DNA of 64,000 nt from Minisyncoccota bacterium (GTDB taxonomy: Bacteria; Patescibacteriota; Minisyncoccia; Phycocordibacterales; JAQTLZ01), in the NCBI GenBank assembly GCA_028714635.1, contig JAQTLZ010000003.1, positions 85,237 to 149,236 of the forward strand. The letters are read 5' to 3'. Made by a program: the position numbers. Positions 39,001-42,000 of the stretch are shown one piece after another. Position 1 is the first letter of the stretch. Each line of letters opens with the position of its first letter.

Positions 39001-42000
39001 GCATTTACATCAGTACAAAGTGAATTGTAGGAACAATCCCCCTCTTCACCGTTATTGATCGCTTCAGGATCAGTACAAATATTTTGCCCAGGAACAGTGA
39101 AAGAGATATGGAAATCAGTAATCCCTACACGCTGACCCAAATTCACTTTATTTGTGACCCTTCCTACAACTTCATAAGTTCCTGGTTCAGTCGGCATAAC
39201 AAAAGGTCCGAAAGAGAAGGTTGATTCGCTTACAAGAAATGTATGGCCTCCCGCTCTTTTGGTTTTAACTCTTGATGCCGCAGGCAAAGGATTTCCAGGC
39301 ACACTCAAAAGCTCTGCTGTAATGTCTCCCGGGGAATTCCCACAAGCGGGACTAAAAACATTAAGCACAACATTGTACGTACCGTCTGTGTTGACTGCTA
39401 TTGATCCATAAACTGATGGGGCAATAGTATGAGCAGTCTCCTTCCCATTTTTCTGATTTACATTCACCTGATTATCAACATCAACGGCCGGCACCCCGCG
39501 CCCCGCTTCCACATTTGCGACGATATCTTCCCATGCAGGCTTCTTGCCATTTGCAACCTGTTTATTTAGCGCAGCAAATACTTTTTTACCGTCCACTTTG
39601 AGAAAAGCGGCGATAATCGGCTTTGCAGCTAGTCTTGCCGCTTTTTTTGCTGCAGCAGCGTCCTTTCTCGCTTGCGCGGCCGCTTCCCTTTCCGCAGCAT
39701 TAAGTGCCGCTATGCTAGAAGAACCATTTGAAGCTTTATTTGCCGCTCTGAGTGAAGGCGACCCGCCGTAAAATACTAATCCTAAAACTCCTACCGCGAA
39801 AATAAGCACCAGCGCGGTCGGTTGCACTTTTTTCTTAAACACAGCGATGACAACTAAGATTCCTATAAGAATAATAGCTACCACAACCGCAATAGGAACA
39901 ATTGGCAACTTATTTCCCTCGTTGATAAGAGCATTTGCCTTTTCTTCATCGTAGTTGCTTGAAAGAGGCTGATTATACGAAGAGAGTACTGCACCATTAT
40001 AGGAAAGGGACGATTCAACTCGAAGCGCTTTTGCATCTGCCAGTGCGTCGATCTGCACAGCTTGCGCTATTGAATCGCTTAAATCAACAGTCATAGCGTT
40101 ATTTTTCCCGACCAGTTCATCTTTTTCATTGAAAACAGAAATACTAAGCATCGCCGTACCAGTAGCAATACTCTCTCCTGTCTCTATGTCATAGGGCGCC
40201 CCAGTGATGTTTGCGATGAGAGAAATAATATCTCCGGATTTTACGGAAGAACTTTTTGTAGTGATGGACTGGATACTTCCAATATCGCCAGCAACAATAT
40301 AACGGAATTGAATTGAAGGAGCTCGGGCAACGCCATTTGCATCAAGAAAAGAAACACTTCCTGCATACACTCCTCCGGCGTAATCGAAGACGGGTAATAA
40401 CATTGTCGAGGTTTTCCCGGTCTTTGCGGGCAAATCAAGAGAAGCGCCGGTTTGGGTAGTGACTTGTTTCCCGAGCATTGATTGGGCAAAAATCGAAATT
40501 TTCGGAGTGACGGAAATCGCCGCCGTACCCGTATTAGATAACGCGACAACGAGTGAAGCTGACTGACCCCTTTTCACCACCGGACCTTCTTGCACACCGA
40601 ATTGTCTCTGGCCAATCGCAACATACGCATCAGTAACTTTAGCAAAAGCGCTTCCCCCCGTAACAGTTATGGGAGCGTCTTGCCAACCCATAGGAACACC
40701 GCTTTTTAAGAAATTCCTGATTTGAATTCCCAAATTCGTTCCGCCTACCGCCTCGGGAAGTTTGTACGAAAAAGGAACGCTTCTCACCTCTTGAGCTTTA
40801 AGCGAGATCGGCCCGAATGTTTTTGTATCATAACTATCTCCCGGAATACCGTCCTCATAATTCCCCACAAGCGAAATCGTGTAGAAGATGTTGGGAACAT
40901 CTATAGGACTTTGGTTTACAACGGTAAACGTGCCGACGACCGTGTCCCCACTCTGAAAGGTCTCCGAGAGAAGGTTGATCTCCGCAACATTCACCTGTGG
41001 ATTATCGAGATAATCTGCCGCCTGAACAGAAGAAGCGGTTTGGATTAGCATCGATGCAGAAACTAAAAGAGAGAGAAGAAATAAATAGGATAGTTTTTTC
41101 ATTATTTTGTATGAGCTCTTTAAAAACGCCGACGAGACGTTCTTTTTTCTCTTTTATTATACCGTGATACCACATGAGAACAAAGGAAACCTGTGGAAAG
41201 AAAAAGCTCGTCAGTGCTTCATTTAAAGCCCAAATTATGCTACGCTCTCCAATATTCTCCAATGAAACACTCAGAGAATGTATGTCGGTGTAGTTAAAAT
41301 GCGAATACATGGAGCATTTTAAAGGCGGAGGCACATAGGTGCCGAGCCGGGGTCGCGAAATTTTTCAGCAGAAAAATATTTGTGACCAATGGTAGAACGA
41401 GAAATACAAGTCGGTGTAGTTCAATGGTAGAACGAGGGACTCATAAGCCCTAGACAGTGGTCCGATTCCACTCATCGACACCTTTTTGCGAAAGAGCGGC
41501 AAATCTGCTACATTTATAGTCCACCAATGCGGCTGTAGTTCAACGGTAGAACGCTCCCCTGTCACGGGAGAGGTCGTGGGGTCAGCACCCATCAGCCGCG
41601 CAAGAAAAAGTCCCGAAAGGGACTTTTTGCTTGCGGGCTGAGGAAGTGACCAAGGTCACTTCCTCATGGGTGCTGACGCCTCATTGAGCATTTTTTCGTA
41701 GAAAAAATCCAATGAGGGTACTGCGGCTGTAAGCCGAAGCGCCCAAGTGGATGCTGAAACCGATTGAGCATTTTTTCGTAGGAAAAATCCAATCGGGATA
41801 CTGTTCCCGTAGGGAAAAGCGCCCCTCAGCAAATTTATTCCCAAACGAATCCCTTCTACTAAAATAAATTGACAAAGTACAAAAACTACTGTAATTTTCG
41901 AATACCGTAGCATTGTGCTGCGATGTGTTCTCATAAAGAATCGGTCTCAGAAAAAGAAAGGCAGGACGCCATGGGATCTTCAAAGGACCCGCAGGATGAA

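What the first reader, a model, noticed from the sequence alone, without database searches (positions are those of the whole stretch)
41340..41830. Family of ~60-70-nt tRNA-associated structured repeats with covarying hairpins (at least six copies in the window)
Full copies lie at 41682-41745, 41762-41826 and 63807-63861. More divergent or partial copies lie upstream of tRNA-Met (41360-41400) and near tRNA-Thr (38141-38190). A stand-alone hairpin lies at 43406-43423. Each copy has hairpin 1 (attttttc-N3/4-gaaaaat), a spacer ccaat.ggg.tactg, and hairpin 2 with a fixed gta loop and different stem sequences that stay complementary (cggct/agccg, ttccc/gggaa, gaccct/agggtc). Compensatory stem changes argue for selection on RNA structure. 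The copies sit beside tRNA genes. At 41386-41400 a 15-nt piece of the tRNA-Met D-arm is duplicated next to one copy.
Basis: seen in the sequence. Interest (0 to 1): 0.6.

Follow-up and report, generated by a model that had tools for sequence, protein, structure and literature searches.

The report
tRNA-appended structured RNA modules in Paceibacteria
The repeats are real: they are the conserved core of a previously undescribed, widespread family of folded elements that sit directly after tRNA genes in tiny-genome CPR bacteria, each wrapped in an inverted and a direct copy of its own tRNA's 3' half, so that it mimics the upper half of that tRNA.

Summary
The window comes from a Candidatus Pacebacteria MAG (CPR). 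It holds three full "type A" units: two after tRNA-Asp and one after tRNA-Ser(ACU).

A metagenome scan and a covariance model recovered about 74 distinct copies. Nearly every one with readable context lies 40-230 nt 3' of a same-strand tRNA, across more than 15 tRNA identities. Three helices (P1, hp1, hp2) covary strongly. G·U outnumbers A·C 55:10 on the tRNA-sense strand.

Each core lies between X' and X. X' is the exact reverse complement of the tRNA's T loop plus 3' T stem. X is a direct copy from the T loop to the 3' end, sometimes running into the trailer. An upstream hairpin (hp0) and an acceptor-5'-like segment usually precede X'. The whole unit folds as a top-half mimic of the cognate tRNA, with a three-way junction in place of the T loop.

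Orthologous units persist with compensatory changes across genomes whose GatA is only about 71-75% identical. No Rfam family, paper, associated protein gene or viral copy was found.

Best reading (about 0.45): an RNA-level, tRNA-co-transcribed module that is inherited vertically and spreads by local duplication. Its function is unknown.

The parts
41529..41601 (+). tRNA-Asp(GUC), host of units A and B. It has an unusual T loop, GTCAGCA.
   Evidence: ARAGORN and Rfam. The same T loop is present in the orthologues L087 and L089.
41602..41633 (+). Terminator-like hairpin (AAGAAAAAGTCCC-GAAA-GGGACTTTTTGCTT) between the tRNA and the unit
   Evidence: Sequence and inverted repeat I1. An equivalent hairpin is present in most loci.
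41633..41666 (+). Acceptor-5'-like segment (GCGGGCTG, complementary to the tRNA-Asp 3' acceptor strand), followed by hairpin hp0 (arms 41639-41651 and 41654-41666)
   Evidence: I1, I5. hp0 is present in at least 45 of 49 units.
41666..41677 (+). X'(A): ATGGGTGCTGAC, the reverse complement of the tRNA-Asp T loop plus 3' T stem (GTCAGCACCCAT)
   Evidence: I2; 13 of 14 Watson-Crick pairs
41679..41736 (+). Unit A core. P1 41679-41686/41710-41717; AGC; hp1 41690-41708; GTACTG 41718-41723; hp2 41724-41736 (CGGCTGTAAGCCG).
   Evidence: Covariance model, 70.5 bits
41737..41744 (+). X(A): AAGCGCCC, read here as a short degenerate copy of the tRNA-Asp T-loop/T-stem region (weakly supported; no significant alignment)
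   Evidence: Assigned by position after hp2 and by analogy with X(B), which does align to tRNA-Asp, and with the X of the L089 and L087 orthologues; the alignment for unit A itself did not cover it
41746..41757 (+). X'(B): AGTGGATGCTGA, a degenerate inverted copy of the tRNA-Asp T arm
41760..41816 (+). Unit B core. P1 41760-41766/41790-41796; hp1 41770-41788; ATACTG; hp2 41804-41816 (TTCCCGTAGGGAA). It is a tandem duplicate of unit A: relatives have only one unit here.
   Evidence: Covariance model, 54.7 bits; 81% identical to A; a single unit in L087 and L089
41817..41830 (+). X(B): AAGCGCCCCTCAGC, a degenerate copy of the tRNA-Asp T arm plus acceptor start
   Evidence: Alignment
63680..63767 (+). 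tRNA-Ser with anticodon ACU, host of unit C
   Evidence: The same tRNA plus unit is found in L002.
63768..63791 (+). Short acceptor-5'-like segment (GGAG) and hp0 (TTTAAAAC-AAA-GTTTTAAA)
63790..63803 (+). X'(C): AAGTGAGATTCGAA, a perfect inverted copy of the tRNA-Ser T loop plus 3' T stem
   Evidence: I4, I5; 14 of 14 Watson-Crick pairs
63805..63860 (+). Unit C core. P1 63805-63812/63834-63841; AGC; hp1 63816-63832; GTACTG 63842-63847; hp2 63848-63860.
   Evidence: Covariance model, 89.1 bits; fold z-score -6.7
63860..63880 (+). X(C): TCGAATCTCACTTCCTCCGCA, a perfect 21-nt direct repeat of 63748-63768 (from the tRNA-Ser T loop to the 3' end)
   Evidence: D1
41284..41401 (+). '5' unit' upstream of tRNA-Met (41410-41482). 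It consists of a copy of tRNA nt 1-12 (41284-41295), a spacer, a type C core GGCGGAG-hp-CGAGCCGGGGTCG-hp-GTGACC (41324-41387), and a D-loop copy AATGGTAGAACGAG (41388-41401).
   Evidence: Type C consensus.
38125..38315 (-). '5' unit' upstream of tRNA-Thr(GGU) (38064-37991). It consists of leader plus tRNA nt 1-10 (38315-38299), hairpins, a degenerate A-like core (38236-38149), a type-C 3' hairpin ...GTGACC (38167-38136), and a D-loop copy AGTTGGTAGAG (38135-38125).
   Evidence: (17.5 bits)
43482..43676 (-). Type C unit 3' of tRNA-Met (43749-43677). It consists of a terminator hairpin, an acceptor-5'-like segment, hp0, X' (43595-43584), the type C core, and X (43497-43482). It is orthologous to L091 7180-7400, with covarying stems.
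43403..43440 (+). Remnant: ACTG plus hp2 (ACCCTGTAAGGGT) plus CGGAAATTCGGTCAC. It is 19 of 19 nt identical to the same part of unit C.
   Evidence: covariance model, 13.5 bits
32690..32730 (-). Remnant 3' of tRNA-Gln (32859-32788): CACTG plus hp2 (GTCGTGTAACGAC) plus a non-cognate X-like tail
   Evidence: Covariance model, 20.7 bits

Best explanation
The repeats are the core of a family of structured RNA modules that Paceibacteria (CPR) carry directly after their tRNA genes, and occasionally before them.

Shown:
- A full 3' unit reads: tRNA, then often a terminator-like hairpin, then a segment complementary to the tRNA's 3' acceptor strand, then hairpin hp0, then X', then G.
- X' is 12 nt and is the exact reverse complement of the T loop plus the 3' T stem.
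- Next comes helix P1 enclosing AGC-hp1-C, then GUACUG, then hp2 (NNNC-UGUAA-GNNN), then X.
- X is a direct copy of the tRNA from the T loop to its 3' end.
- The strand in tRNA sense is the one that folds.
- The helices are kept by compensatory change over long evolutionary distances.
- The arms always match the neighbouring tRNA.

Inferred:
- The unit is transcribed with, or just behind, its tRNA.
- It folds on itself into a mimic of that tRNA's acceptor/T-arm 'top half', with the T loop replaced by a three-way junction (P1/hp1 and hp2).
- Its tRNA-like ends let RNase P, RNase Z and the CCA-adding enzyme cut it out as a discrete RNA of about 110-170 nt.
- New units arise by local partial duplication of the tRNA 3' region. 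The evidence is direct repeats that run into the trailer, tandem arrays, and A and B in this window. The arms are then kept matched to the tRNA by gene conversion and/or by selection for the closing helix.

What the mature RNA does is not known. The options are a protein-binding handle on a cognate-tRNA mimic, a processing or insulating cassette, or a tolerated selfish RNA.
For: 1. Position. In the first scan, 42 of 43 distinct copies with an upstream tRNA on the contig lie 40-230 nt 3' of a same-strand tRNA, across more than 15 tRNA identities. In this window, 6 of 8 tRNAs carry a unit or a remnant.
2. Structure. P1 is 99.5% paired and hp2 98% paired, with 16 of 18 pairs changed on both sides. 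None of 500 shuffles reached the covariation score, and slid controls gave 27-55% pairing. hp1 forms a hairpin in 48 of 49 copies, with at least 6 unrelated stem sequences.
3. Strand. G·U:A·C is 55:10 in the core and 23:7 in X' against the tRNA.
4. Arms. X' pairs with the tRNA T loop plus 3' T stem at 447 Watson-Crick positions out of 546. It follows non-palindromic loops (TTCAAT, TTCGAGT, TTCGATT) and even the odd GTCAGCA loop of tRNA-Asp.
5. Direct repeats. X copies the tRNA 3' end and can extend 11 to more than 25 nt into the trailer (L020, L040, L064, L025).
6. Fold. Unit C folds as predicted, with z = -6.7. Most of the 13 whole units folded close through acceptor-like and X':X helices.
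7. Vertical conservation under structural selection. The tRNA-Asp type A unit is present in the window, L087 and L089. The tRNA-Met type C unit is present in the window and L091, with covarying stems and conserved loops. These genomes share only 71-75% GatA identity. The L034 and L078 orthologues differ by compensatory changes in hp2.
8. Not described. No Rfam family matched, either at gathering threshold or at permissive E-values. Six literature searches found no paper.
Against: - There are no expression data, so transcription, processing and CCA addition are all inferred.
- Many units lie behind a terminator-like hairpin with a U tract. That would limit read-through, and no convincing promoter of their own was found.
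- G·T wobble asymmetry would also fit a single-stranded DNA intermediate of one fixed strand.
- The Rfam tRNA model does not score the units, so the tRNA mimicry is limited to helices.
- Several features look like selfish or mobile behaviour rather than a fixed function. Core type differs at the same tRNA in related lineages (tRNA-Arg(GCG): type A, B or C). tRNA-Ser(UGA) has a unit in some lineages and none in others. A stand-alone core lies away from any tRNA (L089 1372-1473).
- The metagenome search pattern fixed ATTGAGC...CCAAT.RGGRTACTG, so the conservation of those letters is partly by construction.
Confidence: 0.45

Rival explanations
1. A non-autonomous DNA mobile element, similar to a MITE, REPIN or PATE. 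It would move as folded single-stranded DNA and be handled by a transposase or recombinase encoded elsewhere, targeting the T-arm (and D-arm) hairpin of tRNA genes. The hairpins would be recognition structures for that enzyme rather than RNA.
For: - The element is multi-copy, short, and keeps its structure while its sequence varies.
- Modules combine in different ways (types A, A2, B, C; L081 is a hybrid) and form tandem arrays.
- Different core types sit at the same tRNA in related lineages, and presence varies.
- A stand-alone core lies antisense at the 5' end of a pilin gene, far from any tRNA.
- hp1 sequences are alike across different tRNAs within a clade: the window, STB_34 and STB_28 all have ATTTTTTC-NNN-GAAAAAAT.
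Against: - There are no terminal inverted repeats belonging to the element itself and no short TSD.
- The flanks are target-derived and include an inverted copy, which I cannot match to any transposition mechanism I know of.
- No transposase, integrase or HUH gene was seen next to the units in the loci whose neighbouring genes were looked at.
- Orthologous units persist, with compensatory changes, across genomes sharing only about 71-75% GatA identity.
- No recently emptied site was observed.
Confidence: 0.2
2. Scars, or minimal forms, of integrative elements (prophage, ICE or island) that insert into the T-loop-to-3'-end segment of tRNA genes by site-specific recombination. The direct copy X would be the displaced attR, and the core would be the conserved att-proximal arm of the element.
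For: - A direct repeat from the T loop through the 3' end and into the trailer is the classical signature of integration into a tRNA gene.
- There are serial displaced 3' fragments. In L025, a second tRNA-Ile T-arm/acceptor fragment lies between the tRNA and the unit.
- In L071, a 2-kb segment encoding a 601-aa protein with a weak 'integrase repeat unit' match lies between two tRNA-Tyr-derived units.
Against: - Only about 110-170 bp lies between the repeats in nearly all cases.
- No integrase catalytic domain was found.
- There are no copies in 2.9 million viral contigs.
- Binding sites on double-stranded DNA would not give strand-asymmetric G·U covariation in three helices.
- The inverted copy X' and hp0 have no role in this model.
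- The same core serves more than 15 different tRNAs, which would require one att arm shared by many integrase specificities.
Confidence: 0.1
3. A cis-acting switch on tRNA maturation. X' plus the acceptor-5'-like segment can pair either with the tRNA's own 3' half, which unfolds the tRNA, or with the decoy X, which frees it. The three-way-junction core would act as a ligand- or protein-binding domain that decides which pairing wins.
For: - X' is more complementary to the tRNA than to X in nearly all units.
- About half of the X copies carry a recurrent 2-nt insertion (AT, AC or CA) after A58, which would bulge the X':X helix.
- In most of the 13 tRNA+unit transcripts folded, the predicted minimum-energy structure pairs the tRNA's own 3' half with X' and completes the cloverleaf with the downstream X.
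- A few unpaired nucleotides are conserved (GAAG, UGAGC, GUACUG, UGUAA).
Against: - Any direct-inverted-direct triplication gives such alternative folds, so the prediction is not evidence of use.
- Several unrelated core types occupy the same position, which is unlike a conserved aptamer.
- Terminator-like hairpins often separate the tRNA from the unit.
- No ligand or protein is known.
Confidence: 0.12
4. A chance resemblance or an assembly artefact.
For: None beyond the low-complexity AT-rich hp1 in this window.
Against: - 3 hits were found against 0.01-0.02 expected.
- Independent assemblies from NCBI, JGI, ENA and Logan carry the family.
Confidence: 0.01

Closest known systems
tRNA-like processing structures: plant-mitochondrial t-elements and the mascRNA-type tRNA-like 3' modules
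   Same: Both are non-tRNA sequences that imitate the acceptor/T-arm stack. They are expected to be cut by RNase P and RNase Z and to lie in tRNA-type transcription units. This comparison rests on my own knowledge of those systems. For the present units, processing is an inference.
   Different: - Here the helices are copied from the tRNA next door, including the discriminator and sometimes the trailer.
- The T loop is replaced by a covarying three-way junction.
- An inverted copy of the T loop extends the T stem to 12 bp.
- The elements occur at most tRNA genes of a bacterial genome.
- The Rfam tRNA model does not recognise them.
att sites of integrative elements that target tRNA genes (direct repeats of the tRNA 3' end)
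   Same: Both show a direct repeat that starts in the T loop and runs through the 3' end and beyond. Both show serial fragments and arrays. One case here has a 2-kb segment between the repeats.
   Different: The insert is usually only about 100-170 bp. There is no recombinase gene. There is an inverted copy of the target. Covariation is strand-specific. Units are conserved at orthologous loci over long evolutionary distances.
Bacterial palindromic repeat families (REP/REPIN, Correia/NEMIS, Rickettsia palindromic elements, other MITEs)
   Same: Both are short, multi-copy, intergenic and hairpin-forming, with sequence that drifts while pairing is kept. One copy here lies inside or next to a coding-region start.
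   Different: Association with tRNA genes is strict and on the same strand. The flanks are derived from the neighbouring tRNA rather than being the element's own terminal repeats. No TSD was seen, and no RAYT or transposase.
Disrupted archaeal tRNA genes (non-canonical introns in the T or D loop; split and permuted tRNAs)
   Same: The module sits exactly in the T loop (3' units) or D loop (5' units) of a tRNA-derived sequence. The predicted alternative fold uses a downstream 3' half.
   Different: An intact, uninterrupted tRNA always lies next to the interrupted partial copy. No bulge-helix-bulge motif is evident. The organism is bacterial.
tRNA-like domains carrying large inserted modules (tmRNA; bacterial Y-RNA-like YrlA)
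   Same: All have an acceptor-like stem plus a T-arm-like helix, a D-loop-like G-rich hairpin (hp0), and a large non-tRNA module.
   Different: ARAGORN and Rfam give no tmRNA or Y RNA match to the units. The module is inserted in the T loop rather than in place of the anticodon arm. There are many copies per genome, each cognate to a different tRNA.

Membership tests
Any Rfam 15 family | Score at or above the family's gathering threshold | tested here: not met
   Only tRNA matched at gathering threshold in the window. E-value scans of units C, L078 and ten loci with type A, B and C units gave only chance-level hits.
tRNA / tmRNA | Cloverleaf with D, anticodon and T arms (tRNA), or a tRNA-like domain plus tag ORF (tmRNA) | tested here: not met
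   ARAGORN and RF00005 call only the adjacent tRNAs, not the units. The unit has no anticodon arm.
tRNA-like processing element (t-element type) | Acceptor-like stem stacked on a T-arm-like helix | tested here: met
   Folding closes most of the 13 units tested through acceptor-5'-like:acceptor-3' and X':X helices.
tRNA-like processing element (t-element type) | Cleavage by RNase P / RNase Z in vivo or in vitro | not testable with these tools
   No expression or biochemical data are available.
MITE / REPIN | The element's own terminal inverted repeats and a short target-site duplication, or REP doublets with a cognate RAYT | tested here: not met
   The flanks are copies of the neighbouring tRNA (12-nt inverted copy, direct copy of 12 to more than 40 nt). 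They differ from locus to locus. No transposase was seen near the units in the loci examined.
MITE / REPIN | Presence/absence polymorphism with precise empty sites in close relatives | tested here: inconclusive
   Presence and core type differ between lineages. However, the genomes compared are distant, and no precise empty site was seen.
Integrase-mediated insertion into a tRNA gene | Direct repeat of the tRNA 3' segment flanking the insert | tested here: met
   A 21-nt perfect repeat in unit C. Repeats of up to 33 to more than 49 nt in L020 and L040.
Integrase-mediated insertion into a tRNA gene | A tyrosine or serine recombinase gene within or next to the insert | tested here: not met
   The inserts are about 100-170 bp. 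The only larger insert (L071) encodes a protein with only a sub-threshold 'integrase repeat unit' match and no catalytic domain.
Archaeal-type tRNA intron / split tRNA | The insertion interrupts the only copy of the tRNA, and a bulge-helix-bulge motif lies at the exon-intron junctions | tested here: not met
   An intact tRNA precedes every unit. No BHB was seen in the folds (judged by eye, not with a dedicated tool).
Self-cleaving ribozymes (hammerhead, twister, pistol, hatchet, HDV-like) | Match to the family's conserved core | tested here: not met
   No Rfam hit. By eye, the junctions (G / GUACUG / CGA) do not fit the hammerhead CUGANGA...GAAA core.
CRISPR / TIGR-type guide arrays | Regular arrays of repeats with variable spacers next to cas or tas genes | tested here: not met
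   Units are single or in short arrays at tRNA genes. The variable arms match the adjacent tRNA itself. No cas or tas genes were noted in the locus annotations looked at, and the window was not screened for them.

The most novel reading that the evidence does not exclude
The units would be a new class of functional bacterial RNA: a set of cognate 'tRNA top-half' adaptors, one per tRNA species. Each would carry the acceptor stem, discriminator and T stem of its tRNA, fused to a common structured handle (P1/hp1 plus the GUACUG-hp2 motif).

After processing and CCA addition they could be recognised, and perhaps aminoacylated, by the cognate synthetase, and then used or sensed by a factor that binds the handle. 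Alternatively, they could gate maturation of the neighbouring tRNA by swapping 3' halves.

A variant of this reading is an RNA-level mobile module that specifically invades the two elbow loops (D and T) of tRNA sequences.
Probability: 0.2. Interest if true: 0.9.

Novelty: new variant of a known kind. Interest (0 to 1): 0.72.

Why it matters
CPR bacteria have some of the smallest and most streamlined genomes known. Even so, this lineage keeps a structured element of about 110-170 nt, sometimes several, next to most of its tRNA genes, and it preserves the folds by compensatory mutation across deep divergences.

If the units are processed RNAs, they form a large undescribed ncRNA family built on a new principle: each copy borrows the identity-bearing helices of the tRNA beside it. 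That would open questions about tRNA maturation, quality control or non-ribosomal use of tRNA mimics in organisms that cannot yet be cultured alone.

If they are selfish, they are a new kind of element whose flanks are templated by its target. They would also be a likely driver of tRNA-locus rearrangement.

Either way, the direct-inverted-direct copies of tRNA 3' halves will confuse tRNA annotation, att-site prediction and genomic-island prediction in CPR genomes.

Tried and rejected
1. Known RNA families. Rfam at gathering threshold and at permissive E-values gave nothing on the window or on 11 related loci.
2. Ribozyme, box C/D, K-turn and BHB readings, checked by eye.
   - The junction strands do not fit a hammerhead.
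   - GAUUGAG/CUGA lies inside a Watson-Crick helix, so it is not a C/D K-turn.
   - The tandem G·A motif (CGAG...CGAG) occurs in only one hp1 class.
   - No BHB was seen.
3. The model in which X' is simply a direct copy of the 5' T stem plus T loop. This was rejected because non-palindromic T loops (TTCAAT, TTCGAGT, TTCGATT, GTCAGCA) appear reverse-complemented in X'.
4. Templating from mature tRNA by reverse transcription. This is disfavoured because the repeats include the 5' leader (tRNA-Thr) and the 3' trailer.
5. A viral or plasmid origin. There were no hits in viral contigs.
6. An associated protein. The flanking ORFs are housekeeping genes or orphans. The 329-aa neighbour has no homologues at all.
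7. The genome-contig scan used an hp1-specific (AT-rich) pattern. It found only 3 true copies among 18 hits. The pattern was too narrow, and the scan could not be repeated.
8. Six literature searches found nothing relevant. A seventh query failed on syntax.
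Full report
**What is in the window**

The window is a bacterial chromosome segment carrying gatA, prfB and ftsE. Its GC content is about 40-48%. It has eight tRNA genes, and those read lack an encoded CCA. Two of its proteins match, at 100% identity, entries of assembly GCA_028711105.1 (contig JAQTSW010000007), a Candidatus Pacebacteria MAG. This places it in the Candidate Phyla Radiation.

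**Check of the observation**

Shuffled sequence gave 0.01-0.02 expected hits.
- Copy A is at 41682-41745 and copy B at 41762-41826. Both lie after tRNA-Asp (41529-41601).
- Copy C is at 63807-63861, after a tRNA-Ser with the unusual anticodon ACU (63680-63767).

Hairpin 1, the ccaat.ggg.tactg spacer and hairpin 2 with a GTA loop are as described.
- A third helix, P1, encloses hairpin 1. It reads CCCGATTG/CAATCGGG in B and C and CTCATTG/CAATGAG in A, which is itself a compensatory difference.
- A further hairpin, hp0, lies upstream.
- The flanks of each copy are derived from the neighbouring tRNA.

In unit C, a perfect 21-nt direct repeat (63748-63768 = 63860-63880) copies tRNA-Ser from its T loop to its 3' end. 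A perfect 14-nt inverted copy lies at 63790-63803. In unit A, ATGGGTGCTGAC (41666-41677) is the reverse complement of the tRNA-Asp T loop plus 3' T stem.

**Related copies elsewhere**

It returned 18 hits, of which three were true copies. All three were in Candidatus Paceibacterota MAGs from the same study (L002, L004, L011).
- A looser pattern on metagenome contigs returned 66 loci. About 58 were true and 6 were chance hits.
- In 42 of the 43 distinct copies with an upstream tRNA on the contig, that tRNA lies on the same strand 40-230 nt away. More than 15 tRNA identities are represented.
- A covariance model built from 49 distinct copies found 83 matches, 74 of them distinct, in the fetched DNA. 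These include divergent members whose P1 sequence is entirely different.

**Anatomy of a unit**

The order of parts is as follows.
1. The tRNA.
2. Often a terminator-like hairpin with a U tract.
3. A segment complementary to the tRNA's 3' acceptor strand.
4. hp0, a hairpin of 8-10 bp with a freely varying stem. About half of the copies have a G-rich loop. It is present in at least 45 of 49 copies.
5. Two or three nucleotides.
6. X', 12 nt.
7. A single G.
8. P1 enclosing AGC-hp1-C.
9. GUACUG.
10. hp2, of the form NNNC-UGUAA-GNNN.
11. X.

X' is the reverse complement of the seven T-loop nucleotides plus the five 3' T-stem nucleotides of the adjacent tRNA. Over the 14-nt window scored (X' plus the two nucleotides 5' of it), there are 447 Watson-Crick, 23 G·U and 7 A·C positions out of 546. 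Because it follows non-palindromic T loops (TTCAAT, TTCGAGT, TTCGATT and the odd GTCAGCA of tRNA-Asp), it is a true inverted copy. It is not a direct copy of the 5' T stem.

X is a direct copy from about G53/T54 to the discriminator. In L020, L040, L064 and L025 the repeat continues 11 to more than 25 nt into the 3' trailer. About half of the X copies carry a 2-nt insertion (AT, AC or CA) after A58. This would leave a 2-nt bulge in the X':X helix. X' therefore matches the tRNA better than it matches X.

**Evidence for a selected structure**

The figures below are from the model-fitted alignment.
- P1 is 99.5% paired, with 7 of 8 pairs changed on both sides.
- hp2 is 98% paired.
- hp1 is 72% paired at its base. 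Much of the remainder is tandem G·A pairs in one sequence class.
- None of 500 column shuffles reached the observed covariation score. Sliding the partners by 1-3 columns dropped pairing to 34-47%. The independent MAFFT alignment gave the same picture.
- hp1 folds as a hairpin in 48 of 49 copies, with at least six unrelated stem sequences.
- G·U outnumbers A·C 55:10 in the core, so the strand in tRNA sense is the folded one.
- Unit C has a fold z-score of -6.7. The opposite strand folds almost as well, as any palindrome would.

One caveat applies. The letters fixed in the search pattern (ATTGAGC, CCAAT, GG, TACTG) are conserved partly by construction. The GTA of hp2, the pairing and the flanks were not part of the pattern.

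**A wider superfamily**

Other cores occupy the same position between X' and X.
- Type A2 has a different P1 but the same GUACUG-hp2.
- Type B reads CGCCGGAG...GAGGCGGTGCCCAG...GTCGAGGGAGAA.
- Type C reads GCGGAG-hp-CGAGCYGGGGTCG-hp-NGTGACC.
- L081 is a hybrid.
- Tandem arrays occur in L021, L027, L044 and L045.

- Positions 41324-41387 form a type C core. It lies between a copy of tRNA-Met nt 1-12 (41284-41295) and a copy of its D loop (41388-41401), just upstream of the intact tRNA-Met.
- On the minus strand, 38315-38125 is the same kind of 5' unit for tRNA-Thr(GGU). Its repeat includes the 5' leader.
- The intact tRNA-Met on the minus strand (43749-43677) is followed by a type C unit (43676-43482).
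- Remnants consisting of ACUG-hp2-X lie at 43403-43440 (+) and 32730-32690 (-).

Six of the eight tRNAs in the window therefore carry a unit or a remnant.

**Evolutionary behaviour**

Loci orthologous to the gatA neighbourhood were fetched from three genomes with 71-75% GatA identity.
- tRNA-Asp keeps its odd T loop and one type A unit in L087 and L089. The pair A+B in the window is therefore a lineage-specific tandem duplication.
- The tRNA-Met type C unit is orthologous between the window and L091. Its stems covary and its loops are conserved: GAAGGC/GCCTTC against GTTCGC/GCGAAC around AAACTGCTTT, and GTCGACATC/GATGTCGAC against GTCGCCGTT/AACGGCGAC around AGTA.
- tRNA-Ser(ACU) carries a type A unit in both the window and L002.

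These results show long-term vertical persistence under selection for pairing. Other observations point to turnover.
- The same tRNA, Arg(GCG), has type A, B or C in different lineages.
- tRNA-Ser(UGA) has a unit in L066 and L054 but none in L078 and L052.
- One good core (44 bits) lies far from any tRNA, antisense at the start of a pilin gene.

**How it most likely works**

Three things are shown: the fold, its strand, and the fact that the arms are cognate to the neighbouring tRNA. The rest is inferred.
- The unit is transcribed in tRNA sense.
- The acceptor-5'-like segment pairs with the acceptor strand of X, and X' pairs with the T-loop/T-stem part of X. This gives a mimic of the cognate tRNA's top half, with its T loop replaced by the P1/hp1-hp2 three-way junction.
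- Such ends are substrates for RNase P, RNase Z and the CCA-adding enzyme. This rests on established knowledge of minihelix substrates and was not tested here.
- New units arise by partial local duplication. The arms are kept matched by gene conversion and/or by selection for the helix.

The function of the resulting RNA is unknown. I put about 0.45 on this RNA-module reading.

Folding tRNA plus unit together gave, in most of the 13 cases, a structure in which the tRNA's own 3' half pairs with X' and the downstream X completes the cloverleaf. Any direct-inverted-direct repeat allows this. It is the basis of the maturation-switch rival (0.12), not evidence for it.

**Rivals**

- A single-stranded-DNA MITE/REPIN-like element (0.2). 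It fits the modularity, the turnover and the stand-alone copy. It does not fit the target-derived inverted flank, the absence of any transposase, or the deep orthology.
- Integrase scars (0.1). This fits the direct repeats, the displaced 3' fragment in L025 and the 2-kb insert in L071. It does not fit the tiny size, the strand-specific covariation, the absence of recombinases, or the absence of viral copies.

**Comparison with what is known**

No Rfam 15 family matches any module. Six full-text searches found no description.
- In what it works like, the closest analogues are tRNA-like processing structures (t-elements, mascRNA-type modules).
- In its genomic signature, the closest analogue is the att repeats of tRNA-targeting integrative elements.
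- It meets one defining feature of each of these and fails or cannot be tested on the others.

I therefore file it as a new variant of tRNA-like structured elements rather than as a member of any family. I give 0.2 to a categorically new functional class.

Noticed in passing
window 63680-63767 (+); L002 6664-6577 (-): A type II (long variable arm) tRNA with anticodon ACU (A34). It is conserved in two Paceibacteria genomes alongside a normal tRNA-Ser(GCU). To my knowledge, an unmodified or inosine-modified A34 in a Ser tRNA is unusual for bacteria.
   Followed up: partly
window 41529-41601; L087 5347-5419; L089 7482-7554: tRNA-Asp has a non-canonical T loop, GTCAGCA, in place of TTCRANY. The loop is conserved in three genomes, and the inverted copy X' of its unit follows it exactly.
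   Followed up: partly
L071 794-2599 (-): A 601-aa ORF with internal repeats of about 55 aa lies between two units that both carry copies of the tRNA-Tyr 3' half. It matches Pfam INT_rpt, 'integrase repeat unit', only weakly (E = 0.004, below cutoff). It may be cargo of an island bounded by units.
   Followed up: partly
L089 1372-1473 (-): A well-scoring A-like core (44 bits) with no tRNA nearby. It lies antisense across the called start of a type IV pilin-like gene (N_methyl). It may sit in the true intergenic spacer if the gene start was called too early.
   Followed up: partly
window 38427-41102 (-), 41923-42912 (+), 43023-43382 (+), 43813-44397 (-): Four ORFs around the tRNA cluster (891, 329, 119 and 194 aa) have no Pfam or NCBIfam match. 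A search of 5.8 billion sequences found only the 329-aa protein itself.
   Followed up: partly
window 36749-37704 (-): The prfB ORF (294 aa) matches only profile positions 111-350. A short upstream ORF (37507-37704) probably supplies the N terminus. This fits the well-known programmed +1 frameshift of release factor 2.
   Followed up: no
L025 1-1626: The 3' end of 16S rRNA is followed about 900 nt later by tRNA-Ile(GAU), a displaced tRNA-Ile 3' fragment, a type A unit and tRNA-Leu(CAG). Units therefore also occur in an rRNA-operon spacer context.
   Followed up: no
window 43631-43676 and most related loci: The hairpins between tRNA and unit are perfect A-tract/U-tract palindromes. Their stems often extend outward into the tRNA acceptor strand and its inverted copy, as in L004. 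The tRNA 3' half, terminator and X' together form one long palindrome, which would be a possible RNase III substrate or DNA cruciform.
   Followed up: no
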